From the NCBI GenBank assembly GCA_051362555.1, contig CM120640.1, positions 68,922,788-68,986,787 of the forward strand: a stretch of 64,000 nucleotides of DNA. The letters are read 5' to 3'. The notes beneath the pieces are model-generated. The model was not told where the DNA came from. It worked only from the letters and a program-made list of their open reading frames with translations, and searched no databases. Made by a program: the position numbers and the translations under genes. Below are positions 7,051 through 40,093 of this stretch, in pieces. The stretch is from Lingula anatina. Taxonomy: Eukaryota; Animalia; Brachiopoda. How positions within the stretch are numbered: position 1 is the first letter of the stretch; every line of letters begins with the position of its first letter.

Positions 7051-7590
7051 CCATTTGTAATTTATAGCTTCGAAGTTGGAACGAAATCGCTCGTCAAGGG
7101 CTTTCCAGCTCATTGATCTGGATGCCCACATTTCCAGGATCCTGCTGCCATAAATGATCAGATTTTGACTCTGTCCAGGGTATTTAAGGTTGTGCATGAT
7201 TTTGAATACATTAAATGCCTGTTGCCATTGGCCAAAAGTGATTTCCTTTTGCCTCTTTTCCTCTTTACTGAGGCCCAATGATTTCAGAAGGTTCGTTTCT
7301 GGTAGGTCATCAGCTCCTTCGCGTTCAGACCGGTTGGATGTGTTTGTAGTACGCGGAATGAGCTCTTTGAAAGGAACATATTCTTGGTTCCAGATTTTGT
7401 GGCATCTAGTTTTGGTAAGATGGGCCGAAAGAAGATTGGATGCAACTTTACCTTGCAAGTCGTCCTCATCAGTGTGGTCTGCTCTCTGTGTGATTTGTTC
7501 TGCTGTGTTAACTGTGGTGTGATGATCCAATGGAGGGTGTGACGTAGTCCAGGGTTGCCAAGTTGGTGCCATGCGTGGAGGGACAGCCAC
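7051..7590 (-). pseudogene. DIRS/Ngaro gag-like fragment, cut by the HINE
   Basis: KIWNQEYVPFKELIP...ITFGQWQQAFNVF...WKALDERFR matches the gag pattern of YR retrotransposons, also seen at 13.9-14.6 kb. Confidence 0.65.
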
Positions 7591-7801
7591 AGGGCCTGTG
7601 TACCCTCTGTGGGGATATGTATATACTTGTATAGTGGTACTTGAAAACAGAACATTTAATTATCTATGCAAAATATGTAGCATATGATTGGTGAGAGGTT
7701 GTTTATATCACAATAGTCTGTAGTCTCTGTAACAGTCAAAACTATTTTCTTCTCTTTCCAAATGTCCAAATTCTCTTGTTCTCTTGGCAGTGGATGAACT
7801 G

Positions 7802-14400: not shown

Positions 14401-15270
14401 GTGTGAGGCCATTGTCCATTGGGACATAGAGATGATCTGGGGCCTTTTACCCTGAGAAACTGCAAGTGTGAGCTTACCATGGTGGTTTTCCATGGCCAGT
14501 GGGAGGGAGTCGCCAGGTTGAGACAACTGAGTTGACTGGTCCTGGAGGAGTAGTGACAATTCTGTAAACTCGTTCCCCCAAATTTCAGTCTTTTAATTTG
14601 TCATCGACCAGGGCATGAAGGGGAATAGATTTTGTGGATTACCTGCTTGAAGTTTGGGGAGGTACTATACCTGTGTCCGCTGAAGAAGCCGTAGATGGAG
14701 GAACAGACTCGGGTACAGTGTGTTGGCCTGACTGGGCTGGCACCGAGTTGGCTGCTAGCGTGGACATGGCTTGCGACATCTCTTTGAGAATGTTGAAAAT
14801 AGTTTGGTTGTCCACGGGCGGGGTTGAAGGTGAACTCGCAGAAGTGGAGGGTGAAGAAGCGACCGCATTGGAGGGAGGTGTAGGTCTACGAAGAAGTTGC
14901 TTTCCTTTACCGCCTCGTGGACATTTGTCTGGTGCTGATGAGGGTCCCGCGTAAGAAGTGCTTGCAGAAGGAGGCGTTTTGTTTGCCCGGTGCTTGCTTG
15001 GAGTACTCTCGGGAGCTGTTGAACTTCTAGATCTCTTATGAGGCACTGAAAAGTGTAATGAAGACAGCAGCAGACAGATAAAATTTTTTGTAAATTTTTT
15101 GTAATTGAATTGTAATTTTGTTATTTGGAGGAGACGGGGAAGGTGGCGGGGATAAAAATCGTACAGTGGCGATTGTAATCCGTTGTCTGTTCTCTAGCGA
15201 ATGACGTGCTAAGAGTAGTGAGAGAAAGAATACTATCATTCGCTTCCTTAAATGCGACGGCGCGTACCTC
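10780..15270 (-). mobile_element. Near full-length but degenerate DIRS/Ngaro tyrosine-recombinase retrotransposon (boundaries approximate)
   Basis: Overlapping gag (15046-13902, Cys/His-rich C-terminus), RT (KFRLIHDLS, KTDVESAFR, LPMGCSSS, IIDDFL), RNase H (LEFYPIV, FTDNEA, NNLADSQSR) and YR (GHSFRIGAAS...LGRWNSDSFKKYIR, about 11470-12300). Several frameshifts. Confidence 0.9.
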
Positions 15271-16463: not shown

Positions 16464-17294
16464 TCAGGCCTACCCAACTACCAGACTCGGCACCTACGGA
16501 TCCAGAATAAACCGGTATATCAGACCACACTACCCGTTTTCAAGGTGTGTGTCAGATCTCATTACAGAGTATCATACCCCATCACAAATTTTGTAAGCCT
16601 ACCTGTCATCCGGGTATCGCGCATAGTTTTCGTCAAGTAGGAGTCGTATGAATACAACACCATGGCGACAGACGACTCCCTCAATCAGGGGGTGGAAACG
16701 CGCTACTTTTATGATTAAGTCAATAACGGTTATTGTTTTGTGACCTTGAGGAACAATTAGGTTTGGTCGTTGTGGCACGCATGAACAGTAGTTGAACTAC
16801 CACACCTGGGTCTTTTGTTTTTGACACCTGTTCACTCGTCATCGAGGCGCTTGTTCTAGACTACAGGCTGATATCTACTAGTACTACCAGTGGCTTCATT
16901 AGTAACGTTTCCACAATACTTAGTTTTTTATCTGTGCGTACATACCCTGAAAAAGGCCAGCCTCGCTGACAAGAACAATGGACGTTTCTCACCCCTCTCT
17001 AGGATTACCCCTGCCCTCAATCTCGTCCATCCCGGTTATGATGAAAATTGCGGTATTGTCAGATTTTAGCATAAACAGGGAAAATTGCAGCAGCGATTGA
17101 ATCTAGATGAGATGCACTACTTTCCAACCCCGCTTAGGATCATTGCTATCACATCGCGCACCAGGCAAAATCGGTGTGGTGGCTGATACTCTGTAATGCG
17201 ATCTGACACACACCTTGAAAATGGGTAGTGTGGTCTGATAAACCGGTTTATTCTGGATCCGTAGGTGCAGAGTCTGGTAGTTGGGTAGGCCTGA
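16464..17294. mobile_element. MITE with >110-bp TIRs and 3-bp TSD (aaa)
   Basis: tcaggcctacccaactaccagactcggcacc... and its reverse complement ...gagtctggtagttgggtaggcctga. Related element at 60435-60754. Confidence 0.9.
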
Positions 17295-20199: not shown

Positions 20200-21760
20200 C
20201 CAGGCATACGGCAACATTGTAGATAATGCGCTTCATTGATGCCATGACTTTACACTTCCCCATAAACAATTCTGGTGACACAGAGTGGTCCACTAAAGCT
20301 GTTGTGTAGATTTTCTGCACATATCCATCTTGAAAATACCGTTAAGCTTTCAGACTTTTGAATGCCCGCACAGATTTCTTATCGTATGTCCTATCCTTGC
20401 TGTCTGTAAGATACGTTTTCAGTTCTTTCATGGAAAAGTCATCAGGTACGTCTGTTAAATTTCTATTCCAAGTACTCGCATGGATGTGTTTTCGAAAAAA
20501 TTCAGATCGAAACAAGCACTCGTCGATATGGCGTCCGTTGTGTAAGCTCCATACTTGCCCCTTTCAACTTCAAATCCTGCAAAATCTCGCATTCTCACGA
20601 AGAATTTAGCAGAAGTCACGTGACCGTGGAAACACTATTGGGTTTTTCATTAGTGAATTTTGATGAATAAATTGAAAAAAAAATGTCAAAGCTCTGGTTC
20701 CATGGGTAAATACTTCTGTGGAATTTTGCTTTTGGCTGAGAGATAATATTTCCATCTTTTTCTGTTGAAAGTTTTAAGGTTGTGCTCTGATCCGGGTATA
20801 AAAGATGTGCAAATTCCACAAATTCATTGTTAAAGATTTTTGCCTAGTTTTTTCATCCTCATGAAATCCCGAGGGCATAGTTGTATAAAGGTTTGTATCT
20901 GTCGTAGCTGTCATATCTGCACTTAGCTGTTTATCCTTGGAGGAACTTGGACTTGGTGGGGTGTTTGTAGGCGTCTCTGTTGTATTACTGGGGATATTTT
21001 GTTCTGCAGCTATCAGTCTTTGTTCCACTTTGTCTGCTAATTTATTGTAATCGATGGCTGCACTGTAGTGCACTTTTTTTGTCTGTTGATTAATCTGGAC
21101 AATTACCTGTCACTGTCAGCTTGGCCCTGCTAGTTCTGATGACATACAGACATAATAAGAGTGCACAATTGAGGCACCAATTGAGGCACTGATCGTATCG
21201 TTCAAGTAATAGGTAAGATCTGTTTCTGCCAGCTAAATCACCTGTAATGGTCTTCTGATAGGGAGAAATCCAGGCAAGTCCCATTCAAATGCTGTCAATG
21301 GGAGGTCTCCGCCAATTTCCCAAACACAGGCGGTCTACATACCTCAGTATTTTGCAGTTCAGAGTCAATTTCACTCAACATTGTGTCTGGATTGGCAAAT
21401 TCCTCCTCCCCTGAACTGTCACTCAACTGCCCCTCTTCCTCCACCCATGTGGAAGAGTCCCCAGTTGACATTGATGGCTCCATTTGGGAAACTTTTTCTT
21501 TCAAATCCCTTACCTTTTAGGCAAGGGGTCCCACGGCGGCGCTTCCCAACGCCTGTAATGTATCCATAGACTGATCAGTCCCACGTGCCTTTTGTTGTTT
21601 CCCTTTGTTGCTGCTTTTGTGTTTCTCCATACGTGCGTCCTTTTTCACTGTTTTTTCCCCACCATCTTGGCCTCGTTTGTCCTCCTCTAGCTCCTCCGCT
21701 GCTAAAATTTTGTCCATTCCTTTCATTAAGTTTTCAGCTACATGTTGCATGCTCACATTT
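20200..21760 (-). pseudogene. Further DIRS-like gag remnants
   Basis: GFHEDEKTRQK / EFAHLLYPD...WNQSFDIFFSIY, plus an acidic EEGQLSDSS...PPVFGKLAE stretch; frameshifted. Confidence 0.5.
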
Positions 21761-22550
21761 TTTACTGGTTTTGTAAAGAGGCCCAGAAGTACACACTGTC
21801 TGTTAATTTCTCAAAATTACTTACCATCCTTTCTAAATATGTTAAAGGAAACTATTAATTTCGTAAAACTTTCCTGCATATTATTTAACTTTCGAATCAA
21901 ACCATTTATTCTGTTGAAAATGCTCTCTTTCAGGTAATGTTGAATAGAGTTTATGTTGCATACTTGTGTTCATAGTGTTTATCCTTTTATTTACTACAGA
22001 GGCAAAAATTTTACCCTATGAGCGATCTCCCATTTCTCCTTCCTTGTTTCCGTAACTAACTTCTACATTGCTCCATTATCAGTACTTCTCAGATGAAATA
22101 GAAGAGCCCGCATTTAGACAGAGACAGCTGGCCAAAACTGTCTCAATCCACCTTACCAGCGACTACTGGCAATGTAAGCAAGGCTGTCTGAAAACTACCT
22201 ATCAGTCTTTGTTTCCATTGTTCCTTTGCCGCAGTGTTTATGAATCAACCTCTGCACACCCAAGTCATCTCCATTATTACTTCACCCAATTTTGCGGCAG
22301 TGGTCTCCATACACCAGATCATTAACATCTGCGGCTAGCACAATCATGTAATCTGCGATTGGCCAAATGTGGGATATTTCACATTGCAATCTTTTATTTC
22401 TATTGCCTTTTTTTCCATACTTTCACAACGTAATCTCTAATTCTATGTACTATATGTTACCAGGTATGATCAACTGAACTCTGTGGCTGGTTCAAAGTTT
22501 ATTTCAAATTCTAAACCAATAAAATATAAAAACAAAACCCTAAAAAATGT

Positions 22551-22575
22551 ACACACACACACACACACACACACA
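22551..22575 (+). repeat. (CA)n microsatellite, left flank of YR element 1
   Basis: Direct reading. Confidence 0.95.
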
Positions 22576-23689
22576 GTTGTGTGCACCTTTGTGATGAGTT
22601 TTCCTTGTGATGAACTCTTATCGGATCAGCATTGACTTGTGAGTAGTCAAAATATGCTCATCACAAGTCAATGTTGCCTTATTAGGTGTGTGCTTCAGTT
22701 GTGTGCACCTTTGTGATGAGTTTTCCTTGTGATGAACTCTCATCGGATCAGCATTGACTTGTGAGTAATCAAGAAATTATGCTTATCACAATATCCTTAA
22801 AGGAGCTAGTTCACAGACGAGTGGTAAAATTTCCGAAAATTTTGAATCCAGATTTAATAATGTCTTAGGATGTATGTAGGGTTACACGCCAATAAACTAG
22901 GATATCCCGCAAGCGGTCGCTGCGATCAGAAGAGTGGGATTCCGTCGCCGGAGGTGGCACATGGCCCGCCGCACTACCACGTTTTGATTTTACATCTATG
23001 TTGTTCCGTGCTAGTTATATGTCATTTTAACATCTATTTGACATAGGCGGGTGTCATGCATGAGGCAGGGTATGTTTACTCTATCCGGAGCACCTAGTAC
23101 CGCTTCCTAATTGGATATTTTACATCTGTCCATTTCATTATTTGGGAAGTCCTCTTAATTATTGCACGTAGATTTTTAACCTCAGGAGGAACTTATATTT
23201 ACAATGCATACATAACTTATTTTCATTTATAGATATTTCAGGAAAGAGTAAAAATACCTCATGCATGACATAATACATAAATACACAACCCAAATATTAT
23301 ATGCAATCAAAACTGCTTTAATTACAATACTATCCTAAAGGAGCAGAAAAGAAATATCAAATATGATTGAATACCATCTTTATTAGGAATAAACAACTAT
23401 CAATTATCCAGATACATTAATTGATAATAAAATCATATTATTAACATTAATAGTAAAGTTTTAAATCCTTTTTACCAATATAGGGCCAAATTTAGTCCAA
23501 AATTAACTGAACAGATTCAAACACATTCCAATATCTTGCAAACAAATAAGTGTTCCATGTTTTAACAGATGTGAAGAAATACTTAATGCTGGCAACAAAT
23601 TAAAATATAAAGATTGACAAGTTTACATGGAATTCTCCCACACTTAATGACAATAACCTCTATACAGTATGGTAATAGGAAAATGATTA

Positions 23690-24050
23690 CCAATTAGAGA
23701 CCTGTCTTTTAATATCTCAATTTTCTAAAACTTCATAAAAATTATTTATCAGATTAAAACAATCCATAGAAAAAGATAATGTTCTAAATGAAAGTCAGCA
23801 TGGATTTACAGCAAACAGGTCAATTGATCTCTCACAAGCAGAACTGACCAAAGAAATCACAAATGCTATTGAAAATATTGAAAACATGTTAAAAAACATT
23901 CCATACAAAAGATCATAAACTTTTACTAGAAAACATGAATATTATGAGAAAAATAATGTGGAAAATCTTTGATTCCATTAAAGGTTATCTAAAGAAACGT
24001 TCCAACAGGTGAAAAACGACCTTGAAAATATACATGTCGAAACTCCTTAC
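23690..24050 (+). pseudogene. Degraded CR1/L2-type LINE reverse transcriptase fragment inside element 1
   Basis: Remnants resembling (N)xRPVS...QFSK and LNESQHGF...SIDL...ITNAIE; many stops. Confidence 0.5.
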
Positions 24051-24338
24051 AAATTAAAAACATGAATTACTGTTGTGATTCATGGCAAAATGCTTATAAA
24101 ACAAATTTAAGACCTTTGGTATTATTAAAAAAGCAGTAAGAATAATAACACAATAGTCTAAATGTGGAAAAAATTGAACCCACTTAAAAAAAATTAATTG
24201 AATACAACTAGATGTTATAGCATATAAACACTGGTATGTAATGTTTAAAGTATATTTAAAAAAACTACTTTCTCCAAAAATACAAGGCAACCAAATACCT
24301 GAAATAGGTGGATATATAGATATGCACACATTTCATTA

Positions 24339-25471
24339 TTAATTTTTGGAAGTCTGCTGTCGTTTTATCTTTTGGACATCTGCGTTTATTTTATTACGGA
24401 TCTTGTAGGCAGGTACAATTTCCAACGCTGTTCCTGTTGTCATTTGTGTTATTGTGGAATTCCCTGGCACTTTCTTCTCCGCAATAATTGTTTTAAATAT
24501 CTTTTGATAATCTGGGTGGATTTTCCAATTATTGTCTTCTTTTCTCTCTGATTTTTTAGAAAATCAAAGCCGACAATTTATCATTCATGAATAAGAAGGA
24601 AGGAAGGAGATTTAGGAAATTTATGAAGATAACTATATATATATAAAGAGCTTGAGAGCAAAGCAAGATACATGTACATGGAAGAGATTTTTGGTCGATG
24701 AATAAAATATTCAAATAAACTAAGATCTCTACCTGTGTATTTTATCCGCTTCTTGTCTAAATCACTGTGGAGAGATCTTTTTGATGCTGACTGCTCTGAA
24801 CTCTGAAATGCTACATACACATTTGTTTTAATATTTTACATAATAACCAGTAATCAATCATTTATACTGTTATGTTGAGCCCATAGCCAGGAGGAAGGGG
24901 TGCAACAGGTGCACATGCACCCTTTCCAGATATCAATAGTTCCTCCCAACTGAAAAACTCTTGCCGCAGAGATAAATGTTTCACACAATCCCAGTTTTAT
25001 TAAAAAATGAGGTGTTAATAAATATCATATTTTGTAATAAAAGATATCAAATGTATGGGATTTAGCTTTGAGACCTTTTTTTTTTTTTTGCTCGTCAACT
25101 TTCTTCTGGTTTCAAAAGTTTCACTTGTATAATAGGAAGTTCCGCTTGCTGATTCTATGCACCCCTTCACTCAAAATTTTGGCTATGGGCCTGTATGCTG
25201 TGTAACTTGTATCATAAATCATGCCTTTAACTTTATTTTGACAATGAATATAAATGTTGAGCAAATTATCATATCTAAACTTCAGTCTTTCAAACACAGA
25301 ATGATATTACTAATGAATATTAGAGCAATGTTTAGTTGAGTATATACCAGTTGTTTGAGGCTGACTCGGAGACTGGACTTCATCATCCACGTCATCATCC
25401 AAAGCAGATTCAGGAATAACAACATCTGCACAAAACAGAAATGTTACATGACAATAAAGTGTACTGATGTG

Positions 25472-25550
<79 letters not shown>

Positions 25551-27043
25551 CTAAAATTTCTAGCTTTAAGTTCCTCTTAAGCTCAAAAGTTGTCATTTAT
25601 TTCATTTTAAATTGGTATAATACAGAAATAACTATATTTCTGTCATTACAATAAATGACATGATTTACATTGTTTCTAACATTTACTCCCCAACTACTCA
25701 TATCAACCCTTTGACTGCCAAAAATTAATGTGTCTACATCTGATTTTTTTCAAGTTGATTAAAATGTCATGTTATTTCAAGTTCTGCAATTACAGTTTAA
25801 ATAACACATCATGCCTGTAGGAAATGCACAATGTTCTATTAGAGTCAGTGAGCGAATGTTTGTTTGTTTATTCCATGTCCTTTATCAACAGCTGACAACC
25901 AAACGCCAATGCCGAGGTGACTGCTATAGCTCTTTGGGACAAAGTCCTGACGAGCTAAAAAAGGATTGAAGGATCATAAAGGAAAATATTAGAAAGAAAA
26001 AAGTATTAATGTATCAAGTGCAAAATTATAAATGTAAAACTTACCTTCACATGAAATTTTGTCAAGTGATTTTCCACGGTACTGATCAAGATTGCCACTT
26101 TCTGATAAGACCATCAATTTCGCCATCTTGGTTTTTTCGATTGTTGTCGACATCATTCTGTAGTAGTCTTTATGCACATGCATAGTATGGCCTAAATGAG
26201 ACGCCACCCACTCGAGTTCATACGCCTCAAGGGAAAATACCTGGGGATAGAATAGAAAAATAGTTAAATATCATTTAATCTATACTTCTTCCTAATATTT
26301 TTAAGTAACAAGATGAGTTACCAAACCATTATCCAGTAATAAATTGTCAAAGTCTGAGGACCTGTGTACGTGTTACTATTTTAGAATATAATATGGACCT
26401 TTTCCACATTGAAAATTTGAATTCCTATTATTATCAACTTAAAAAATGAAAAATATTAAAGTGGCAAATAGCTGACATATATATGTCTATCTATTTGCTG
26501 TTAACTCAAGTTTATATGACTGTGAAATTGCACGTCAAGGTCAAATTCAATGTCATCAAAATGAGACAATTATATGACTTCCTATTAGTGTTCAATAGTA
26601 ACCACTTCTAATTTTAATATTCTACAAGTTATATAGCAACCTGAAACCTACATGATATCAATTGACTGAAACATAAACTAAGGTACAAGGTGTAACTAAG
26701 GTGTAAGAGTCAAAGTCACCAAAACACTATCAATATAACTTCTTGTAAGAGTTTAATAGTAACCATTTATATTTTTGAATAGTCTATAAGTTTAAAATAT
26801 GGTTGTCGACATCATTTTGTAATAGTCTTTATGCACATGCATAGTATGGCTTAACTGAGATGCCATATCATGAAGTCATATAATTGTCTCATTTTGATGA
26901 CATAATATCAAATGAAATAAAATAAACATCAAAGTCACTAAAATGAAGCCAATAAAATTATGACTTCCTATTAATGTTCAATAGTAATAATTCACAAATA
27001 GTCCCGCTGTAATGAATCGGTTCAGCACCAATACCATTCCATC

Positions 27044-27089
<46 letters not shown>

Positions 27090-30000
27090 CCTGTGTCAGG
27101 CAATAATTGATCATACAGATGTTTCAGTGCAATGCAGACAATTCTATGTATGCTGTAGGATGAATACAGTGAACTTATTCACCCCATGCTGCCCTTGCAT
27201 ATTCTAAATGCAATCTGGACATACTAAATGTACATTTATACTAAATGTTTAAGATCTACATATTTTGTTGCTTATCATTAATATATTGTTATTGAACCAT
27301 GTTTTATAATTAGGCTCTGCTAGTCCTTTAATGTTGAATGCATGCATGGTATGATTACATATTATTGACATCTTCAATGGAGATTTAAATAGAAATCATT
27401 TGATAAAAAAGTACAATACACTACCTGTAAGGTTGTGGCTAAATATTTTCGTAATCTTGTAGCTTTGATTGAGGAAGGATCTTGTAGCTTTCTCTTCAGT
27501 GAATCAACAACTTTTGATAAAGATTCAACCGCTCGAACTACACCATCACCTAAAGGGACATCAAGAGCTTTTCATACTGTTGTATAATTATATTTCAATC
27601 TGTTGTATACTATCTTGTAAGAACTATAATCTACGATAAATTATTTATTTGCAAAATATAGTAAATAATTGAACTTTCACTTCAATAAACGTGACTTTCA
27701 ACCGAACATTCGCCATTTATTGATTTATGATTGATTGACTGATTAATCCATTAGAGTGCACTTTCAGCATCGAAGGCCATGCAGCACTAGATAGAAATCC
27801 GGGACAGGGTTACAATACCCTACTCTTACGATTGTTCTCAGGAGATCTTTATAGTGCGTGTCCCCATAGACAGTGCCACACAATACCAGGCCTTTTACAC
27901 AGTCGGGCTGCACTGCCAAACTCCTACCCTAATGCCTGCATGCAAAGCAGGGGGGGGGGGGCAGTTTGTACCATTTTGATGATGGTCTTTGGTATGACCC
28001 GGCCGGGGCCCGAACCCACGAACTACCACAAGAGAGGTGGATATGCTAACCACTAAGCCATCCCGACGAGGTCTATTTCATTTATGAAATACAGACTTAA
28101 ATCTCCTACCTGGCAATATTAAGTCAAAAGTGTTTTTGGCCTAGTGTTTTGTGAAATATGACTTGTCATTTTTTTACAGACTTAAGTCAAATAGTACATT
28201 TTTGGACTTGAAAAGGACTTAAGTCTGTTCGTGAAACCAGGCCCTGATCATAACGCAGACTCATCCTTTCCACGAGCAAAAACAAAATGATGTTCAGTAG
28301 CATGTTAGAAGTTTAACTTACCAAAATTTGGGAAAAGGTAAGGTGAATTGTCTACTTGAACTGCTTTTCTGACTTCTTCAGATGCTAACAGTTCCAGCAG
28401 GTCGTACAGATCAGGGGGCAGTAGAACTGGAACTCCACGTCCCCTCTTTCCTCTGACGGTTATAAGTTCATGTGTCGTCAATAAATATTTCTCCAAATCG
28501 GAAAGGGAAGACATGAACTGTGACATGTGTGGCTCACCTTCCTTTCTTCTCTTCTGGTAGTCATCAAGACTATTGAAAAATCATCAAACAGAAACTAAAG
28601 TTGATGTCGTCATAATTATAGCTATGTGATTCATCTACTTTTTCTTGTTGACCCCATTCTTCACTCATTTAATAAAAAAGTTAATCTACAAAACCAGCTA
28701 ATTAACCCACTGCCACAATCAAACACTAATTTTTGTTACATTAAAATTTTTACTCTACAAATCACACTGTGTCCCCATTGAAACATGCAACTTGAGCAAT
28801 GTGATAAAAAATAAAATAATACAAGTACTGTTGGGAAATAGGCAATTTATGATTTAAGATTTATTACGATTTTTTAATATTGTTTTATTGCAAATGTGTA
28901 AAAAAGCCAAGTTTATCTTGAACAGTATGGAAATATGATTGACTTTCACTCAATCAATGGATACCATGGAAGTAAAGGTGTCAAATTGAATTCATAACAC
29001 TTTAAAGTTGTAATATTGAACAATACTTAAATTTTTAGCATGTAATTGCTTGTTTTGGGTTTATATTTATTTTAAAATATATGTAATGGTTTCACAATCC
29101 CAAGAAACTTATTTTTTTAATGTTCAAAATCTAAGAATGTTCAAAATTTAAGACATTTTTGTGGAAATAATAGGTTATACTTACTATATAGCTTCTATCT
29201 CCCCTGGCCTTCGCTTATTGAATGTCACCAGTCTTGCTTGAGCGATCTCAACCCCTTCTCTAAACCCATCCTTCGTCTTAAGGATTGCTTCAGTGCTCAA
29301 TGAGTTTGATTTCCACTGAACATGTTGTGACAGAACCCTCAAATCTTCAGGAACAGGTAGAGACTGAACGGTAGTGTAACGACCTTCATCTAGAGTAGCT
29401 GTTGCTAGCGATGATACATTGCTGCTCCAGTTTTTCTCCATGAGCTTGATGACATCTGCTGCTTCCTCAGCTCTCTGCAGGTTTTTTGGGCTACTCATCA
29501 GAGCTGCACTTTCCTTGATGTTTGCGAGGTCTTTGATAACGTATCCTCCTTTCAAAGCATTTGATGGGGTTTCGTACGTATTTCCTTCTTTTCCTATTCC
29601 TGCAAGAGTTGTCACAGCTGTTACGATTATGGTAAAATTCTCCGGTTTCAGTACTTCATCCCATGTTATTTCTTTTGCCATTATTTTCCTTATTTCGATC
29701 AGAATTCTAGCTGCTAGTCGCATCTTATCAGATGCATACCTTCCTCGTTTCAGAAGATTTTTCGCCACATTCTTTATCGTTTGGTTTCCCAAATGCAGAA
29801 TAAGTTCATCTTTGGTTGCTACACAGCTGATTTCATCATTAATAAATTTACTGAGTACTTCACTTTTCAGGAATTCAGAGGGAATATGATCAGTTCCACT
29901 GTCTAAGAGTCCTTTAGCCAGTAAAGAGGCTCTTGAACTGGACATATCACCATCAAAACCTTTACATCTTTTCGTATAACTGCGATGCTTGGCCAAATCT

Positions 30001-31413
30001 TTAACGTATAAAAAACAAGTAGGACATGGCAGGAAATCGGTAGTTTTCATATCACCGTCAGTAAATCGACGAGATAGAAGCAGTTCACCCTTCTCCTGTT
30101 GCAACACCCTCTCGTTGTGGTCATGATCTCCTTTGTTACGCATAATTTCTAATGCATCCTTTTGCTGCTTTTGTGACATTTTGTTTAAGGCTCTAATTTC
30201 TTCATGATCTTCGTGGACATGAAGCAGATGATCACGAATTCGGAGTACCAGCTTCCCACAAATCATACAACAATGTTTTGAATTCAAAACCCTTTCATTC
30301 TTCTTTTTCTTCCCATTGTAGGACAACTTTGTTTTTTTAATCTTTTTTATATACACATGTCTCTTATCTGTAAAGAACAATTTGTCTTCATCCAACTTGA
30401 GTAGATCATCTGGAGAACTCATCAAGGGAATTTCAAATGATTCATCACTGCTGTTGTCTGAGCCATATACTATGGTGTCTTCTATGGATTCATCAGATGC
30501 ATCAATTTTCACAGCACTCCTACTCTCTTCTGCAAGAGAAAGCAATAAAACTAGAATTGATATTACATGACCGACGGAAAGCTTCCTGCTGGAAAAAATA
30601 GAATAAATATTATATGGGTTGCTTGGGGGATGTCTTGTATGCAGTGTGTATTTCCTTATTAGGTGTGTGTACAACTCAGATCTTATAATAGTAAACAAAA
30701 CGACACCTACCCACATCAGCGACAGCAGACTGCAACAACTGTTTGTTACTGCCGTGCGACTCCGAAAGGATTTCTTCTCCCGACGGAAAGCTTCCTGCTG
30801 GAAAAATAGAATAAATATTATATGGGTTGCTTGGGGGATGTCTTGTATGCAGTGTGTATTTCCTTATTAGGTGTGTGTACAACTCAGATCTTATAATAGT
30901 AAACAAAACGACACCTACCCACATCAGCGACAGCAGACTGCAACAACTGTTTGTTACTGCCGTGCGACTCCGAAAGGATTTCTTCTCCCGGCGAAAGGCT
31001 TCCTGCTGGAAAAATAGAATAAATATTATATGGGTTGCTTGGGGGATGTCTTGTATGCAGTGTATATTTCCTTATTAGGTGTGTGTACAACTGAGATCTT
31101 ATCATCAACAAAAGATATATTTTAACTAGTTGCATATTCAAAATATTATGAAAAAGGATTTTGATCTAAGCTCAATATATTTCATGTTCACATCCTTTGC
31201 AAATATAAAAATGTGCCTACCTTTGATCCGAACTGAAGCTATCTCATAAGCCTCTTTTATTATACAAGTCAAATCATGCATTTTCTCAGGGGATTTGCAT
31301 TTCTTCTTAATGATGTCTGGTAAGTATACAAGTTTTGAATAAAAAACACAGTTATTTTCTATATTCAAAATGAATTCACTTCTACACACATTCAGCATAT
31401 GCAATAATAACGA

Positions 31414-31463
<50 letters not shown>

Positions 31464-32838
31464 CAAAAACTTGAAATACAAACACAATATATTACAGATT
31501 TTCAATTTCCTTCATATGTACACTATATTATTGAGTTACAAGCACAGGATACGAAAAGAAATGTTGAATTCCTTTTTCCTGACATAAACATTACGTCCAA
31601 TGGGTAATGAATGCTAATTGCCAAAGATATGGTATGATAATGGGGAATATTACTAGAATTCTTTAAATTTGTGACACAATAAAGGTTTTTGATTTTTGTT
31701 CATAATAAGTATGATCATCATTATGATACTAAGGTTTTGAATTTTAGTGTCCGGAGATGGCTATTTGAAGTATTTATGTATAGATATTTTGATTAAATAG
31801 AACAGATATAATTCAAAAGGGTATTAGTATTTTCAACAGTAACGAGTTTGAACATTTGAAAATGAAACTAAACATCATAAACGTCTTATATATATTTCAT
31901 TTACCTAATGACTCCTGAAGATAGTCAACACTGGTGAATGGCACTACTCTCTTAAGAGAGCGTTTACCTATCTTAACCCTAACAACAACAAAAACTACTC
32001 AAATTCTCTCCACAAAAGTAAAACGATTCTAAATTTTGCTAAAATGTTAGATCAGATTATGACATTGTGTGAATAATCTAAGAAACAGTTTGTATTTTCT
32101 AATTACACTCAATTACAGCTATCAAAACATTTCATTGCAACAAAAAGTATAACAAAATATATCAATGGTGCTACATTTATGATGTAACCTTACATATAGT
32201 ATGCACATATGAGATCAGGGTATGTAACATTGTATGGTTGGGGAATAATGAAGTTATAGTCAATAACAAGGTCATCAAAATGAAGCTAATATACGACTTC
32301 CTATTAGTCATGTAAGTGTTCAATAGTAACCATTTTCCATATTTGTAATAATAAATAGCCAACTGAAAACTATGATAGCAAATGACCCTGAAAATATAGG
32401 TCAAGGTCAGATTCAAGTTCACCAAAATTAAGGAATTTGTATATGACTCTCTATTCATGATGTATAGTTACTATGTGCATATTTTGCATGGTTTCTTGGC
32501 TAAAAGCCGAATCAAATATAGTAGGTTATCATACCCAGAAGCTCATAATATTAAAAATATTGAAAAATAGTTCATACTGCAATGATTTAAAGAAACTAAA
32601 AATATGTACTTAGGTGCATGAGAAGTCATGAGAAATCAAAAATGTGTGTTCAGAAGTTTGTGCTGTTAAATGGTAGAAATAATACTCTTTTCAGGTTCAT
32701 TTAAAATAATAAATCTACATACCATCCTGACTCGTTGAACCAACCTATGTAAATATTTGGTTTCACAGCTGTAACGATACCCGGCCACCATATTTCAGTG
32801 TCTGTAGTCTTACACCATACTATTTCACCTGCATCCAT
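24339..32838 (-). CDS. Spliced PWWP - Zn finger - tyrosine recombinase - Myb-like protein (~908 aa)
   Basis: Exons 32838-32723, 31378-31221, 31005-30919, 30797-30711, 30529-29185, 28569-28322, 27549-27425, 26240-26045, 25425-25348, 24810-24733 and 24547-24339 are all GT-AG, phase-compatible and total 2727 nt. Motifs: GEIVWCK...IWWPGIV; CMIC...H...H; FLPCPTC; FNKRRPGE; GKRGRGVPVLL; TRLRKYLAT; HLGHTMHVHKDYY; C-terminal W...F...I.EKKVPG. Confidence 0.85.
24877..25193. mobile_element. Small MITE in a YR-gene intron
   Basis: Inverted ends gcccatagcca ... tggctatgggc. Confidence 0.55.
27718..28073 (-). mobile_element. tRNA-derived SINE (Meta/MESC-like core) in a YR-gene intron
   Basis: Minus strand: A box tggcttagtgg, B box ggttcgggccc, core ggtcataccaaagac...aaaatggtac...tgcc, and an (aatc)n-like tail. 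Confidence 0.75.
30572..31100. repeat. 208-bp tandem repeat (~2.5 copies), each full copy carrying an 87-nt phase-1 exon
   Basis: Near-identical sequence at a 208-bp period, also visible as duplicated ORFs in the track. Confidence 0.95.
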
Positions 32839-33800
32839 TTCAATCCTACAAAATTATGATCAATATCATTATTCTACTTATTAAACAATTTTTTTTGTGA
32901 ATTTTGAAAATACAGAACAGTGTTAACAATTAGATTAATAATGATAAGTGATTGTGGGTATCTGTGATTAATAGCATATCAGTTGCCATAAAAATCGACA
33001 TGAGATATTTATAATTATATAAAGGCGTCCGTTTTCGTGCAAAATAGTTACAATGAGCTACATGTATGTGCCCTATTTTAAGTTGATATATCTAGCTTAC
33101 TGCCACAGACAAGCTATCAATCTACCTAGAATAGTCCTCAGAATTCATTGTAACATGGACATATAATGTATATACAATTATCGAAGATTATTTGTCTATC
33201 GGAAAAGTGTTGTCTATTTTAGTAACCATTACTGCATTAGCCAACTTATCCGAAAAAAAAAATAGAGTAGATCTAACGACGTGGTGTGTTTCGTGAGCCG
33301 CTGACAAGTTTTTCTTTTCGGTAAATATTCAACAGAATTTTGAGAATTATATGCTATCAACAAAAGTGAATAAGTTTTATCAAACTTGACTGAAATTTTA
33401 TTTCATTACTCACCTATTTTTGTGCACAGCTATCAAAGTTTTCTGATGTGTGAATTTCCCGCTTCCCGCTATCGGGCAGCCATGTTGGATTGAATTTTCC
33501 ATGAAGTGAAGCACGCCGGGAAGCACGTGACGTAATTTTGCATGTAAGCTCCAGGTGGCGCCATGAGCCAATGCGAATGAAAAGTGTGTACACGCGTTAT
33601 AAATAGCAATTACACGCATCTCAATGCACGCTAATCGAATGGATTCCTTATGATGATGTTGAAAAAACTGTTCCACACGCATCACTAGACGAAAATAAAC
33701 GGATTTAAGAGATTTCCTTCTTGAAAGCTCATCACAAGGAAAAATGCTCATCACAAGTCAAACTATGTCGGATGAAACGCTTCACAAGTCCTACCTCGCC

Positions 33801-33806
<6 letters not shown>

Positions 33807-33853
<47 letters not shown>
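33807..33853 (+). repeat. (CA)n microsatellite shared by YR elements 1 and 2
   Basis: Direct reading. Confidence 0.95.
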
Positions 33854-33856
<3 letters not shown>

Positions 33857-34899
33857 TCTATGTGTACCAACCGAGGACATCAGCACAACACCATACAACC
33901 GAGGACATCTTATTCCTTGGTTAAATCAAAATAAAAACATTCAATTTAGGGTAAAATCTATTCGGGTATGAATGTTATAAATTAATTTTTTATAAAAACT
34001 AATTTTTTGCTGACAAGAATTTTACATTCTAACCGAGGACACACACGGACACACACACGGACAGACACTACACATTACAACCGAGGACATGCATGCATCT
34101 ACATGTAATAATGATTGTACTTTTAATGCAAAGCAAATTTTATATAGCGTTACTTTGCAGCAATTCACATTTTTATGAAATTCTTTCATATTTAAGGTAA
34201 ATTCCAAAATAACACCAGAGGTGATGATTAAATGAACAGTTATACAATATTTAATGCTGGGCTTTGCCACTTTTTTAGAATTGAAGATTATGAGATAAAA
34301 CATCAATTAATTTAGGAAAAGAAAGGATACTGATGAAATAAAATAAAAGACCAAAGAAATTCGTTTTCAAACATTTTATTTTCATAATGCTTATTTTCTA
34401 TTTAGCACTCTTTTATTATCATGAATTTTATATTTTGATAACACAAAGTGTCGTCCATTGGATACAGACTTGCACAGTACACAATTTTACAATTGAGGAC
34501 ATCATGCCAGCAGCACCCAAAATTGTGCTTTCTTCCAATTTGGTGCAATATTATATAATGCTTAACAGCATAATGATCATCAATTTTTTATAATAAAATA
34601 TTAGTATCATGAATATTCAGAAAATGTGACTAGCAAAGGTTTTCAGGTTCATGGAACTCCAAAGTCATACTTTGAAAATGCTAAATGTATACAAGAGAGC
34701 ACTGTACTGAAATGGGCTTCTTTCCATTTTTAACTTTTTTACATAAAATAATACAGTTTACTGCCATTTCACATGATCAACTAAGAAAATTGTTGAGATG
34801 GCAAAAATATCAATATAACAAGTTTAAATGTCCAATTTCCTCCATTCCAAACATTGTGAATGATTGAATCTGACAAACTACAATGATACGAGTTCATTT

Positions 34900-37330
34900 C
34901 CATTTTGGCACTTTTTTTACACAATACAAGATAACAGGTTTACCACCATTTTTATATAATCAACTAGCAATATTGTCAAGACGCAGAAATTGTCAAACAA
35001 CCCATTTTACATATCTAGTAAATTCAATAATGAGACTGTTTACATGCCTGACAATCAAATCTGAGGAAAACCACTTATATACAAATAATAGCTGAAGTCC
35101 CTCAAAACTCAACCAATCAATCTTATTTTTAAATTTGATTTGTATATAGATAACATTGATCACTCTTGTGAGTTTAATGACAACAGGCCTTGCGGTTCTC
35201 CCTGAAATGTGCTTACAGTGTTACTAATATGCTTTTACTAATAATCATCAGTTCTGTGAGTTTCATGAAAACAGGCTTTAAGTTATTGGTTCTCCCTGAA
35301 ATGTGCTTACAGTGTTACATATATGCTGAAAAAAAAAACAAAAAAACAAAAAAACAAAAAAAAAAAAAAAAAAAACAGCATAACATTTGAAAGAAAAGGG
35401 CCTGGTCTTGCTGATTTTCAATCTTGACCATTCTTTTACTAATAATCATCAGTTCTGTGAGTTTCATGAAAACAGGCTTATTGGTTCTCCTTGAAATATG
35501 TTAACAGTGTTGCATGTACACTGAAAAAAGGAGAAAAAAATGCAAAACTTTTGAAAATAATCATCCCATTTCCTCCATTTTGAGACACTGTATTACACAG
35601 TACATGATAACATGTTTACCGTCATATTTATATAATCAACTAGCAATGTTGTAAAGATGCAGACAATTTCAGAGAAACACTAACATATTTACATATCTAG
35701 TTAATTAAATAACGAAACTGTCAACATGCCTGACAATCAAATCTGAGGAAAACCACTTATATACTTGTTAATAAAAGCTGAAGTCCCTCAGAACTCAACC
35801 AATCTATCTTTTTTTTAAATTTGATTTGTATATAGATAACATTGATCACTCTTGTGAGTTTAATGACAACAGGCCTATCGGTTCTCCCTGAAATGTGCTT
35901 ACAGTGTTACTTATATGCTGAAAAAAAAAAAACAGCATAAAATTTGAAAGAAAAGGGCCTGGTCATGCTGATTTTCAATCTTGACCATTCTTTTACTCAT
36001 AATAATCAGTTCTGTGAGTTTCATGAAAACAGGCTTTAAGTTATTGGTTTCTTCCTGAAATGTGCTTACAGTGTTACTTATATGCTTAAAAAGAACAGCA
36101 TAACATTTGAAAGAAAAGGGCCTGGTCATGCTGATTTTCAATCTTGACCATTCTTTTACTAATAATCATCAGTTCTGTGAGTTTCATGAAAACAGGCTTA
36201 TTGGTTCTCCTTGAAATGTGCTTACAGTGTTACATATATGCTGAAAAAAAACCAGCATAACATTTGAAAGAAAAGGGCCTGGTCATGCTGATTTTCAATC
36301 TTGACCATTCTTTTACTTATAATCATCAGTTCTGTGAGTTTTATGAAAAGAGGCCTATTGGTTCTCCTTGAAATGTGTTTACAGTGTTGCATGTACAATG
36401 AAAAAAGGAAAAAAAAATGCAAAACTTTTGAAAATAATCACCCCATTGCCTCCATTTTGAGACACTGTATTACACAGTACATGATAACATGTTTACCGTC
36501 ATATTTATATAATCAACTAGCAATGTTGTAAAGATGCAGAAAATTTCAGACAAACACTAACATATTTACATATCTAGTTAGTTCAATAACGAAACTGTCA
36601 ACATGCCTGACAATCAAATCTGAGGAAAACCACTTATATATATCAAAACAAGGCACAACTTCCACAAAACTCAACCAATCAATCCTATTTTCAAACTTGA
36701 TTTGTATATTGGTAACATTGATCACTCTTGTGAGTTTAATGACAACAGGCCTATCGGTTCTCCCTGAAATGTGCTTACAGTGTTACTTATATGCTGAAAA
36801 TGGCAGAAAAAAAACAGCATAACTTTTGACAAAAAATGGCCCGGATATGCCGATTTTTGATCTTGACAACCCTTTTACTAATAATCATCAGTTCTGTGAG
36901 TTTCATGACAATAGACCTATTGCTTCTCCTTGAACTGTGTTTACAGTGTTGCATGTATGCTGAAAAAAGCAAAAACAACAGCAAATTTTCTGAAAAAAAA
37001 AAGGAGCCCATTATGAAGATTTTCAAACTTGACCTGCGTTTAACTAATATTCATCAGTTCTGTGAGTTTCATGAAAATAGACCTATCGGTTCTCTTTAAA
37101 ATGTTGCATCGCATATAATATTATGCTGAGAAAAGGGAAAAACAGCAACTTTGTAAAATTGGCCAGATCACACTGATTTTCGAACTGCGTTTTATAAATA
37201 TTCAACAGTTCTGTGAGTTTCATGACAATAGGCCTATCGGAAATATGTTAACAGTGTTGGAAATATGCTGGAAAAGGTGAAAAAAGCACAGCTTGAACCC
37301 CCCCCCCCCCATGCTGATTTTCGAAATTAA
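34900..37330. repeat. Complex, higher-order tandem repeat inside element 2
   Basis: Subunit atcagttctgtgagtttcatgaaaacaggc recurs about 8 times. The larger block gcctgacaatcaaatctgaggaaaaccacttatata recurs at ~35046, 35728 and 36606. Confidence 0.85.
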
Positions 37331-37335
37331 CTTGC

Positions 37336-39539
37336 TTAATTTGCATAAGTTAGTTTTAGTGGATCCTTTGTTTGCATTCTGTTTCTACAAAAGTCTTTCC
37401 AGCTCCTGCTATCCAAAGCAGATTCTTGTTCCACACATTCCATGATTGCTTCTTTTCCAGGCAGTTTTCCTTGAACCAGGAAACTTCCTAAATGCTTCAA
37501 TACAGCTGACACTTCTTCTTTTGTCCAAGGCCTTTTGCCTTTTGCCTTCTTTTTTGGGACTACAAATAAAAAAAGTATGGAACTATTCAGACTTAATGCT
37601 GTAGAGACTAATCATAACAAATGAGCTGCAGCTTAACTGAGCTGAAGCCTAAATCATCACACATGTTAAAAAAATAAAATTTTATCCTTTAACGAATCGA
37701 CCCGCCTTCCCTGCAGGGGGGGGAGAGCTATTAAAACAGCGAAGTTGCCTGAAGACATTCCATTAAAGAATTAGGTGTTATTCTTTCAAAATGTCACATG
37801 ATGAGTCAAACCCTGGCCCAGTTGTTGTGAAAGGCCTCTTAGGTTCCCCATAGAATATGGATCTAAGCATTTTGACAGCAAAATTAGTGTATAGCATATT
37901 TTCACCTGATATGTTATTAGATCATGTAACAAGTAATATCCAGAAAAAAATATGTTAGAATACCAATATAGAAATTTGAGAGTTCATTATATTATTCAAA
38001 TATTTTGATAAACATTTACTGTATGTAATTTCTTGCAATTCTTTTTACCTGGTTTTTCCACAAATGCATTAACTTCTCCACCATTATCTAAAGGGACCCT
38101 TGGAATCAATTGACCAACAATATCTGAAAAAGCAAAATTAAAGGTAAATATACTAAAGGGATAATAAATGACCATTTTAGCAAAAAAAAAAAAAAAAGGG
38201 GGGGGGTTAAGGGCAATTTTCACATACTTAAAACTATTGGTCAGTGAATCAGATCTGCAATTCAAAGTTAGTCCCTGTTTTTTTTCTAAAAAGTTTGGTG
38301 TTTTGTAATATTTTCTTAAGAGAATATTACAGAGTACAGTCATCTATGGAGGTCACGTGATGTGATAACAAGCACAGACTTCATAAAAATTGGGTTAACT
38401 GCCACTTTGGTGGTAAAATAGCATTTGTATTCATTGTCAAATAAGGATTTCATACTAACAGTTATCACTTTAAATGTAGCATGTAAATCTAGATAATTCT
38501 GACAGTTTTTATTGTACGTTTACACATAGAAGTGCACTCACTGCATGTTCCTATACTACGAAAAACATCACTTGTGCAACTCAACATTTTATCAAATTTT
38601 ACTATACCTTGAGCAGAGTCTTCATTTGCTGCGTCCTCCAACAATTCCTCTTCAAATACTAAAATTTGAAATCGTATAATGTTTGATTGATAAAACAACT
38701 AGTGAAATGAGAATTCAGTGTGTATTCTCTTACATACTTTGAATAAATTTTAATGATAACAGATTTTTGGTAATATCTCTCAGGTACACAACATCTTAAC
38801 ATTTAGAAATGTTTTCAGGGAGATGGATGGAAGTGTTTCACAATGATTTCTAAAGAAGGATCTAATACATACCATCTTCAGTGGTGACATTTATGTCATC
38901 GAGAGTCTTGCCTCCAATTTGCAGTCCTTGCTCTGAGGCAAGCAAAAGCTTGGACACTTTGGCCACCTGAACTGTTGCTTCTGGCAGTCTATAATATTCC
39001 CGATGTATACGAATATCATGGCCTAAAAACTTAGCCAAGATATCCAGCTCATTCTCTCTCAGATCTACCACCTGGGATATGGTGGCAATCTGCTTTCTCA
39101 GGGTGGTGGAATTGATCAGCTCTGGCTGCTTTGCTCCACTCTCTTGTGCTAGTTCTCTAAGGCAGTCCGACCACCGGATGTGACCCTCACTGCCATAGTT
39201 GGGCCTGGGGAAGAGATACTTGTTATCTTTGCTCACTCCAAATTTTGATCTTGTTTCAATGAGCAAATTTATTGCCTGTTGCACATCTGATGGGAGAAGA
39301 ACAGGGACTGTTCTTCCCCTTTTCCCTGTGATCTCCATTCTGTGTAGGGTTTGACATAACTCCTGCTCTACAGTAGTAAGACTATCTAAAACTACCTTCT
39401 CCCCATTAGGTGCTGGCCTATTCTGGTAATCATCTAATGTTATTCTGGAGGCCTCTCTACGGACGATCCATTTACCCTTTTCATTTAATTCTTGCACCCT
39501 CAAAAGATTGTCGGTCCTAAGATCTACCGAGTGAGCCAC
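37336..39539 (-). pseudogene. 5'-truncated spliced tyrosine recombinase + Myb-like gene of element 2
   Basis: Exon to 38873 has EASRITLDDY...GKRGRTVPVLL...TTLRKQIAT...LAKFLGHDIRIHREYYRLPE. Small exons 38658-38608 and 38123-38049. Last exon 37559-37336 has KRPWTKEEVSAV...GKLPGK...SRSWK. The N-terminal Zn-finger region is missing. Confidence 0.8.
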
Positions 39540-40067
39540 AAATTCAGACAGTTCTTTTTTATTTAAACCACTCCAAGTCAGTTGTACTAATAAAGAAGCG
39601 TGCCGTAATATGTACAGTGCGATGATAGTTATGTAGTTACGTAACGGCCTAGGAGAGCTTAATTTGATAAAAAAGACCTTTAGTTTAAAAATATGAACTT
39701 ACTGAATATATAGACATCTGAGATATAACATTAGTTGCAGTTTAGTCTGCCCTTTACAGCACAACCGAGGACGCGGAATTTGGTCCGCCCTTTACAGCAC
39801 AACCGAGGACGCGTGTGTATAGCACGATTTCAGACAAAAAGTTGGACAGTATTTCTGATACACTCGTGGCGGGAATTTGGCCCGCGTTATACAGCATAAC
39901 CTAGGACTGGCTCAGAATAGCGTCAAATTTCACCACCTAACTTGAGATGGGCCCCTTTATGCATTCCACTGCTTATGTCAACCGAGGACGTCCTCGGTTG
40001 GAGGTGTGTCCTCGGTTAGTGGGTTTCGGGCGGGTGTGTGTCCTCGGTTAGAATGCGTGCACAAGAG

Positions 40068-40093
40068 CACACACACACACACACACACACACA
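40068..40093 (+). repeat. (CA)n microsatellite, right flank of element 2
   Basis: Direct reading. Confidence 0.95.

What the first reader, a model, noticed from the sequence alone, without database searches (positions are those of the whole stretch)
24339..32838. Spliced transposon tyrosine recombinase carrying an N-terminal PWWP chromatin-reader domain
Seen in sequence: a 116-nt coding exon absent from the ORF track (32838-32723) reads MDAGEIVWCKTTDTEIWWPGIVTAVKPNIYIGWFNESG. The next exon supplies a helix resembling the PWWP C-terminal helix (LTCIIKEAYEIA). Splicing continues in phase through Zn-finger, YR (R, K, xxLR, LGH, YY) and Myb-like exons to give ~908 aa with no internal stop. Established: PWWP domains (LEDGF, DNMT3) read H3K36me2/3 nucleosomes, and LEDGF tethers HIV integrase in trans; CryptonV is a Repbase group of YR DNA transposons. 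Inference: this element carries its own histone-mark reader in cis, so it could choose targets by both a DNA repeat and chromatin state. I do not know of a described PWWP-YR Crypton.
Basis: partly seen in the sequence, partly recalled or inferred. Interest (0 to 1): 0.88.

Follow-up and report, generated by a model that had tools for sequence, protein, structure and literature searches.

The report
Microsatellite-seeking transposon with PWWP-like front exons
An 11-kb recombinase-encoding stretch with the hallmarks of a jumping gene sits between CA repeats in a lamp-shell genome and carries front exons resembling a chromatin-binding PWWP domain; these are likely, but not shown to be, spliced onto the recombinase, and their methyl-reading pocket is predicted to be incomplete, so they would more likely grip nucleosomal DNA than read a histone mark.

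Summary
Mostly real. The gene lies in an 11.2-kb element (22576-33806) between (CA)n tracts, with inverted subterminal motifs; a second, truncated recombinase element shares the tract. This fits microsatellite-targeting CryptonV. Exons 5-11 match a Lingula anatina RefSeq protein (723 aa, 99.7%) with intact R-K-R-H-Y residues, but that record lacks the PWWP exons. The first exon is PWWP-like by three weak tests (Pfam E=0.005, below cut-off; ESM top hits PWWP, 0.83; three predicted strands). The cage is incomplete by alignment (E15/W18/W33). No RNA junction was listed and no read covered exon 1 in six thinly sampled runs; a duplicated acceptor at 30588 could uncouple PWWP from the recombinase in this copy. 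One of 168 homologs has a similar PWWP-like start, two look Tudor-like, 6 of 99 carry SET. Reader-transposon fusions are published (Chromo, PHD, SET); my searches found no PWWP-Crypton. This scan noted CryptonV-like repeat-targeting elements on other DNA, none with PWWP. New variant; chromatin targeting untested.

The parts
22576..33806 (-). Element 1: CryptonV-like tyrosine-recombinase DNA transposon (inferred extent)
   Evidence: Bounded by (CA)n tracts and inverted subterminal motifs
22551..22575 (.). (CA)n tract, left flank / likely target
33807..33853 (.). (CA)n tract between element 1 and element 2 / likely target
22576..22777 (+). Left end: TTGTGATGAG-TTTTCCTTGTGATGA motifs, duplicated (82 nt, 95%)
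   Evidence: left vs right end local score 42, best of 500 shuffles 31
33725..33806 (-). Right end: same motifs in inverted orientation
33414..33502 (-). Putative exon 0 (GTGAGT donor at 33413); an ATG at 33502 is in frame with exon 1 and would add 32 aa; CpG obs/exp about 1.05 over 33000-33899
   Evidence: prediction only
32723..32838 (-). Exon 1: PWWP-like strands 1-3 (W8, W17, W18, P19, W33, F34, E36)
   Evidence: Pfam PF00855 E=0.0052, 17.7 bits < 25.6 cut-off; ESM top hits PWWP 0.83; strands 5-10, 17-25, 28-33
31905..31978 (-).
   Evidence: prediction only, not covered by run X1
31221..31316 (-). Exon 3: putative C-terminal helices (LTCIIKEAYEIA)
   Evidence: 1 synonymous vs 6 non-synonymous changes in X1
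30919..31005 (-). Exon 4a, 87-nt linker exon in a 208-nt tandem repeat
30711..30797 (-). Exon 4b, second repeat copy
30571..30588 (-). Third, partial repeat copy: acceptor at 30588 that leads to a stop after 8 codons
29185..30529 (-). Exon 5: acidic linker, two zinc-finger-like motifs, helical region, catalytic Arg (NKRRPGE)
   Evidence: RefSeq match; alignment
28322..28569 (-). Exon 6: RGKRGR (catalytic Lys)
27425..27549 (-). Exon 7: TRLRKY (second Arg)
26045..26240 (-). Exon 8: HLGH and DYYR (catalytic His and Tyr)
25348..25425 (-). Exon 9: acidic linker
24733..24810 (-). Exon 10: basic linker
24339..24547 (-). Exon 11: C-terminal helical domain, Myb/SANT-like in relatives; no Pfam hit here
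   Evidence: 9 synonymous vs 6 non-synonymous listed changes in X1
33854..40067 (-). Element 2: a different, truncated element of the same kind, AACCGAGGAC end motifs, YR C-half 39698-38862 (38% identical over 198 aa)
   Evidence: followed by (CA)n 40068-40093

Best explanation
This is an 11.2-kb element between (CA)n tracts whose spliced gene encodes a tyrosine recombinase with intact catalytic residues, likely a CryptonV-type transposon, and whose predicted front exons encode a degenerate PWWP-like domain that is likely spliced onto the recombinase and would tether it to nucleosomal DNA rather than read a methyl mark. Inferred mechanism: the zinc-finger-like and helical parts bind the inverted TTGTGATGA end motifs, the recombinase crosses over at the element/(CA)n borders to excise a circle and re-insert it in another (CA)n tract; site choice comes from the repeat, while the PWWP-like module on a long acidic linker adds low-specificity chromatin contact through basic residues and a partial cage (W18, W33, E36). 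In this particular copy the recent tandem duplication of exon 4 may divert splicing to a stop.
For: Ends and flanks; a second, different recombinase element in the same tract; microsatellite insertion reported for CryptonV (PMC8869645 passage). Catalytic residues invariant in 15 of 15; predicted-structure neighbours include XerC/integrase clusters, TM 0.34-0.39 by query. PWWP likeness; PWWP structures (DNMT3, MSH6) among weak Foldseek rows, none significant. Exons 1-4 lie inside the ends, on the same strand, with GT-AG sites and continuous phase into exon 5. Exon 1 is kept without indel in run X1, 4 synonymous vs 3 non-synonymous changes, none at W8/W17/W18/P19/W33/F34/E36 (P=0.03, or 0.10 allowing for transition bias). 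Homolog P0048, in the same 96-member clade (support 0.98), starts GRIVWAQVKG...MWP; its only PDB hit at E<=10 is the JASPer clone LD23804 chain 6kco (E=0.1; 0.014 with exon 1 aligned). Cage defined as three aromatics (PMC3119473); loss of two abolishes H3K36me3 binding in JASPer, which also binds DNA (PMC6877644).
Against: RefSeq XP_013383013.2 starts at M161 and its earlier version has a different first exon absent from the window. No RNA junction listed and zero depth over exon 1 in 6 of 6 RNA runs, though depth is about 1 or less everywhere and includes introns. Pfam score below cut-off; ESM 0.83 is 'lead only'; Foldseek 0 hits at E<=0.001. Exon 3 shows no constraint (pN/pS 1.45). 0 of 119 scanned proteins hit PWWP; P0048's stretch has no Pfam PWWP hit, folds poorly (pLDDT 43) and is not significantly similar to this N-terminus (190 of 1000 shuffles as good). 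No second copy or empty site was seen; X1 depth is flat at about 50-60 over the exons it covers.
Confidence: 0.57

Rival explanations
1. The front domain is a true methyl-lysine reader (DNMT3-like, W18/W33 plus acidic E36) fused to the recombinase, so the element chooses (CA)n sites within H3K36me2/3 or similar chromatin.
For: Two cage aromatics and the acidic residue after strand 3 are present and unchanged in X1; DNMT3 and MSH6 PWWP chains appear among weak structural rows; Royal-family and SET domains recur at N-termini of relatives.
Against: First cage position is Glu by the Y-x-x-W spacing of HDGF2 and JASPer and by alignment to DNMT3B; P0048 is still more degenerate; no binding or insertion-site data.
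Confidence: 0.17
2. The PWWP-like exons are real but uncoupled from the recombinase in this copy or family: splicing uses the duplicated acceptor at 30588, giving a 161-aa PWWP-only product, and the recombinase is made from M161 or not at all.
For: The 30588 acceptor is as strong as the true ones (pyrimidine 0.80) and lies upstream of 30529; with it the longest ORF starts exactly at RefSeq's M161; exon 3 looks unconstrained.
Against: The duplication is recent (98% matches), so it would describe decay of this copy, not the ancestral design; P0048 is on record as one chain with PWWP-like start and recombinase (a gene prediction).
Confidence: 0.16
3. The WWP exon is a chance or captured host fragment without function in the element.
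For: All PWWP scores are sub-threshold; no RNA read on exon 1; RefSeq omits it; selection signal marginal.
Against: 0 of 2000 resamplings give the motif; PWWP is the top family in Pfam and ESM; three successive exons keep phase; motif residues are kept in X1.
Confidence: 0.06
4. The locus is a domesticated, immobile host gene derived from a CryptonV element, with PWWP added as a chromatin function (as SETMAR or ZMYM).
For: Only one Lingula record among close protein hits; same site in the RefSeq haplotype (shared flank exon); flat single-copy-like depth in X1; exon 11 constrained.
Against: Both ends and (CA)n flanks are intact, a second element sits in the same tract, catalytic residues are all kept, and RNA reads are scarce.
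Confidence: 0.04

Closest known systems
CryptonV (Kapitonov & Jurka 2012, Repbase Reports 12:2034; seen only as cited in PMC8869645 and listed in PMC5753468)
   Same: DNA element encoding a tyrosine recombinase, inserted in microsatellites, animal host.
   Different: No CryptonV reference sequence was available, so clade membership is untested; no PWWP is mentioned in the passages seen.
Crypton A/F/I/S (Kojima & Jurka 2011, PMC3212892, passages)
   Same: Single YR gene, proposed excision as a circle and re-integration, no long repeats.
   Different: Those animal Cryptons have no terminal repeats and no C-terminal domain; this one has inverted subterminal motifs, zinc-finger-like and C-terminal domains, and no DUF3504 hit.
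Transposon-chromatin reader fusions (bioRxiv 10.1101/2021.11.30.470311, section 10 read; MAGGY chromodomain cited there)
   Same: Reader or writer domain carried in cis by a mobile element; 823 candidate fusions, 31% validated.
   Different: Mostly PHD, Chromo, SNF2 and SET with retrotransposons or DDE transposons; PWWP or YR fusions are not named in the main text; its Supplementary Table 6 could not be seen.
SET-bearing members of this same YR family (database records only)
   Same: Same recombinase core with a chromatin domain attached: 6 of 99 scanned proteins, and ESM clusters with SET in 79-99% of members.
   Different: Writer domain, not PWWP; mostly outside the 96-member clade; gene models unverified.
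LEDGF/JASPer and DNMT3 PWWP domains (PMC3119473, PMC6877644, PMC10018349 passages)
   Same: G-x-I-V-W-x-K...W-W-P start, W/F after strand 3, basic residues; LEDGF tethers HIV integrase in trans.
   Different: One extra residue before WWP, first cage aromatic replaced by Glu, sub-threshold profile score, in cis on a recombinase.

Membership tests
CryptonV | Encodes a tyrosine recombinase with catalytic residues | tested here: met
   R565, K614, R689, H715, Y724 invariant in 15 of 15; integrase/XerC structural neighbours; Pfam Phage_integrase only in relatives, sub-cut-off
CryptonV | Inserted in a microsatellite | tested here: met
   (CA)n at both ends of both elements
CryptonV | Groups with Repbase CryptonV reference proteins | not testable with these tools
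   No reference sequences held; tree has unnamed homologs only
CryptonV | Mobility: several copies or an empty site | tested here: inconclusive
   No genome held; one Lingula record; same site in the RefSeq haplotype
CryptonA/I (animal Cryptons of Kojima & Jurka 2011) | No terminal repeats, no C-terminal domain, DUF3504-type YR (CryptonA) | tested here: not met
   Inverted subterminal motifs, conserved C-terminal domain, no DUF3504 hit on P0002
PWWP domain | Pfam PF00855 above gathering score | tested here: inconclusive
   17.7 bits vs 25.6 on exon 1 alone, 38 of about 95 residues; the spliced domain could not be scanned
PWWP domain | Five-strand barrel plus C-terminal helices | tested here: inconclusive
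   Exon 1 gives three strands, pLDDT 70; Foldseek 0 hits at E<=0.001; strands 4-5 and helices inferred from sequence
PWWP methyl-lysine reader | Three-aromatic cage (HDGF2 Y18/W21/F44; JASPer Y23/W26) | tested here: not met
   E15/W18/W33 by spacing and alignment; sequence-level test only
PWWP methyl-lysine reader | Binds methylated nucleosomes | not testable with these tools
   Bench assay needed
PWWP-recombinase fusion | One transcript joins exons 1-4 in frame to exon 5 | tested here: inconclusive
   Phase is continuous; no junction listed in 6 of 6 low-depth RNA runs; RefSeq starts at M161

The most novel reading that the evidence does not exclude
A large clade of animal CryptonV-type recombinase transposons carries a fast-evolving Royal-family module (PWWP here and in P0048, Tudor-like in others, SET in sister groups) at the N-terminus, missed by gene callers because it lies on small upstream exons, and uses it to pick microsatellite targets by chromatin state: a two-key integration system in one polypeptide.
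Probability: 0.2. Interest if true: 0.8.

Novelty: new variant of a known kind. Interest (0 to 1): 0.5.

Why it matters
CryptonV elements are barely described outside Repbase (3 papers in the library hold the word) and how they choose among thousands of identical microsatellites is unknown. A self-carried PWWP-like module would be a cis counterpart of LEDGF tethering and makes the question testable with one protein with defined ends and target; a recombinase with a chromatin tether would also interest genome engineering. If the domain only binds DNA or is uncoupled, the finding is a useful element annotation.

Tried and rejected
No whole genome is held, so copy number and empty sites were not tested. 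The look-up of sequencing runs: no RNA holder listed. Six RNA runs laid (X2, X5, X8 on 24200-33600; X3, X4, X6 on 30450-33900; about 6% of each read, 25% of X8): 25, 8, 0, 8, 1 and 7 reads at >=99% identity, no joint reached the listing rule. Word-based protein searches were crowded and gave 1, 7 and 5 hits. Metagenome scan with exon 5 found 0 of 97 candidates; with alignment A2, 9 of 128, none with a PWWP-like exon upstream, but flanks are short or repetitive; viral contigs 0 of 77. PDB sequence search with exon 1: 2 rows, best E=0.95 unrelated, DNMT3B E=7.6. P0048 stretch: low-confidence fold, no Pfam PWWP. A two-sequence profile found no further N-termini among the stored proteins; a helix resemblance in P0057/P0062/P0065 was seen by eye and dropped. 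The wide structure search never ran. Direct exon 1 -> exon 3 (31316) splicing rejected: stop at codon 39. The (CA)n at 25476-25511 rejected as a boundary: it lies in an intron of the RefSeq-matched gene. Literature: Crypton+PWWP 0 papers; PWWP+transposon+tyrosine recombinase 4, 3 listed (PMC4738411 passages unrelated, the other two seen as listings only); Crypton+SET domain+tyrosine recombinase 2 reviews, listings only; PWWP+transposase+DNA transposon 7, 6 listed (PMC10018349 passages concern LEDGF); Lingula+Crypton 0; PMC13465315 has no CryptonV or PWWP.
Full report
Observation. The quoted exon is at 32838-32723 with an upstream AG and a GTATGT donor. A better model adds a 74-nt exon at 31978-31905 and uses the acceptor at 31316, giving 883 aa with one repeat exon or 912 with two, without internal stops. 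The added exon supplies W-V and V-P-F where strands 4-5 of a PWWP barrel are expected (motif knowledge recalled). A further upstream exon ending at 33414 is in frame and could add 32 aa.

The recombinase gene. Exon 5 hits RefSeq XP_013383013.2 of Lingula anatina at 100%; that 723-aa record equals residues 161-883 of my model with 2 differences, confirming introns 5-10 as far as a public gene model can, and lacks all upstream exons. Its earlier version has a different first exon not found in the window and a last exon identical to the flank at 21517-21700, so the public assembly is another haplotype of the same site. R565, K614, R689, H715 and Y724 are invariant in 15 of 15 aligned sequences, as are Cys/His residues of two zinc-finger-like motifs at 90% or more. 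Pfam finds neither integrase nor Myb on the window's exons; the ESM model of the record has integrase/XerC neighbours (TM 0.34-0.39 by query, up to 0.71 by target) and a Myb-type cluster at 0.92 by features. The family is large: 3107 cluster representatives at E<=0.001.

The element. The gene lies between (CA)n tracts at 22551-22575 and 33807-33853. Next to each tract stands TTGTGATGAG..TTTTCCTTGTGATGA in inverted orientation (5 matches at <=2 mismatches against 0.58 expected, 4 of them at the ends; end-to-end score 42 against a shuffle maximum of 31). A second element, 33854-40067, has its own end motif AACCGAGGAC (10 exact matches, 0.02 expected), a truncated YR 38% identical, and ends at another (CA)n. 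Two different YR elements in one tract fit the statement that some CryptonV families insert in microsatellites (PMC8869645, passages). Exons 0-4 lie inside the right end, on the gene's strand. Mobility is not shown: no genome is held and X1 depth is flat.

Is it PWWP? Only exon 1 could be tested alone. Pfam: PWWP E=0.0052 (17.7 bits, cut-off 25.6) and MUM1-like PWWP E=0.097, the only two families. ESM: top three clusters PWWP, 0.83, 171-172 shared features, 10 of 10 best family hits agree; the tool calls this a lead. AlphaFold: three strands, pLDDT 70. Foldseek: nothing significant; DNMT3 and MSH6 PWWP entries at ranks 2, 7-9, 12, 30. These tests use the same 38 residues and are not independent. 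In X1 exon 1 has 7 substitutions (4 synonymous), no indel, motif residues kept; pN/pS 0.19, P 0.03-0.10; exon 3 is unconstrained (1 vs 6), exon 11 constrained (9 vs 6 among the rows shown of a truncated table). The cage is three aromatics (HDGF2 Y18, W21, F44; exceptions MBD5 and NSD1-N; PMC3119473 passages), and Y23A/W26A abolishes H3K36me3 binding in JASPer, which also binds DNA (PMC6877644 passages). Here the positions are E15, W18, W33, with E36 where DNMT3 has an acidic residue (DNMT3B numbering recalled). So the domain is best called PWWP-like with an incomplete cage.

Is it fused? Not shown. Six RNA runs gave 0-25 near-identical reads each, some intronic, none over exon 1, and no listed joint; this is too thin to count strongly either way. 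The 208-nt tandem repeat (2.6 copies) leaves a third acceptor at 30588; using it stops translation at 161 aa and leaves M161 as the longest ORF, which is where RefSeq starts. That is a real rival for this copy.

Relatives. Of 168 stored proteins, 119 were scanned with Pfam (99 at E<=0.001, including the locus's own two records; 21 at E<=1, one repeated): 0 PWWP, 6 of the 99 SET. 78 of 168 end at the exon-5 boundary, that is single-exon calls that cannot show upstream exons. One, P0048 (1504 aa), begins with a PWWP-like motif, then long repeats, then the core (pattern written after seeing it); its sole PDB hit is 6kco, the protein of JASPer clone LD23804 (E=0.1; 0.014 with exon 1 aligned), but Pfam and AlphaFold do not confirm it and it is not significantly like this N-terminus. 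P0125 starts Tudor-like (E=1e-4) and P0100 Agenet-like (E=0.07), both picked by eye and below cut-off. In a midpoint-rooted FastTree of 143 cores (26 short or redundant rows dropped), this protein and P0048 fall in a 96-member clade with support 0.98 but are not sisters.

Mechanism and verdict. Shown: ends, flanks, catalytic residues, exon phase. Inferred: excision and re-integration at (CA)n by the YR, by analogy with the circle model for Cryptons (PMC3212892 passages); binding of end motifs by the zinc-finger-like region; N-terminal tethering to chromatin. My odds: CryptonV-like transposon 0.9; PWWP-like domain real 0.8; fused in the functional element 0.65-0.7; methyl-mark reading about 0.2. 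No paper in the library holds both Crypton and PWWP; Repbase Reports are not searchable. Two earlier scan notes describe repeat-targeting YR elements in other genomes, unchecked. New variant of a known kind; interest 0.5.

Noticed in passing
window 33854-40067: Second, truncated CryptonV-like element in the same (CA)n tract, own end motif, YR N-half missing, Myb-like last exon 37611-37336, and 157/166-nt tandem arrays inside.
   Followed up: partly
window 22576-22777: Left end is duplicated (82 nt, 95%) around an inverted end-like motif; 22666-22692 resembles the intron part of the exon-4 repeat (81-85%).
   Followed up: partly
window 26798-26875: Degenerate partial duplicate of exon 8 (67 nt, 91%) in the preceding intron.
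   Followed up: no
window 27720-28075: tRNA-like head and very high depth in run X1: looks like a SINE inserted in an intron (label by eye).
   Followed up: no
window 11437-15193: Minus-strand fragments of gag-like, reverse transcriptase, RNase H and tyrosine recombinase ORFs: DIRS/Ngaro-like retroelement remnant (labels recalled from motifs); similar gag-like pieces at 7045-7659 and 20774-21810.
   Followed up: no
window 8036-9209: Fragments resembling a protein-primed DNA polymerase B of Polinton type (by eye).
   Followed up: no
window 5788-6681 and 51323-52475: 146-nt satellite arrays; related motif fragments occur in introns of element 1 and draw most of the 90-95% RNA reads.
   Followed up: no
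window 16464-17294: 118-nt inverted repeat (94%) with a 595-nt spacer and transposase-like ORF pieces.
   Followed up: no
window 1643-2476 and 56329-62983: Host-gene exons: two UBZ-like zinc fingers (polymerase-kappa-like tail) and a P4-ATPase-like gene (labels by eye).
   Followed up: no
P0073, P0101, P0105: Database proteins that join this YR family to DUF3504/ZMYM-type or SET domains; possibly chimeric gene models.
   Followed up: no
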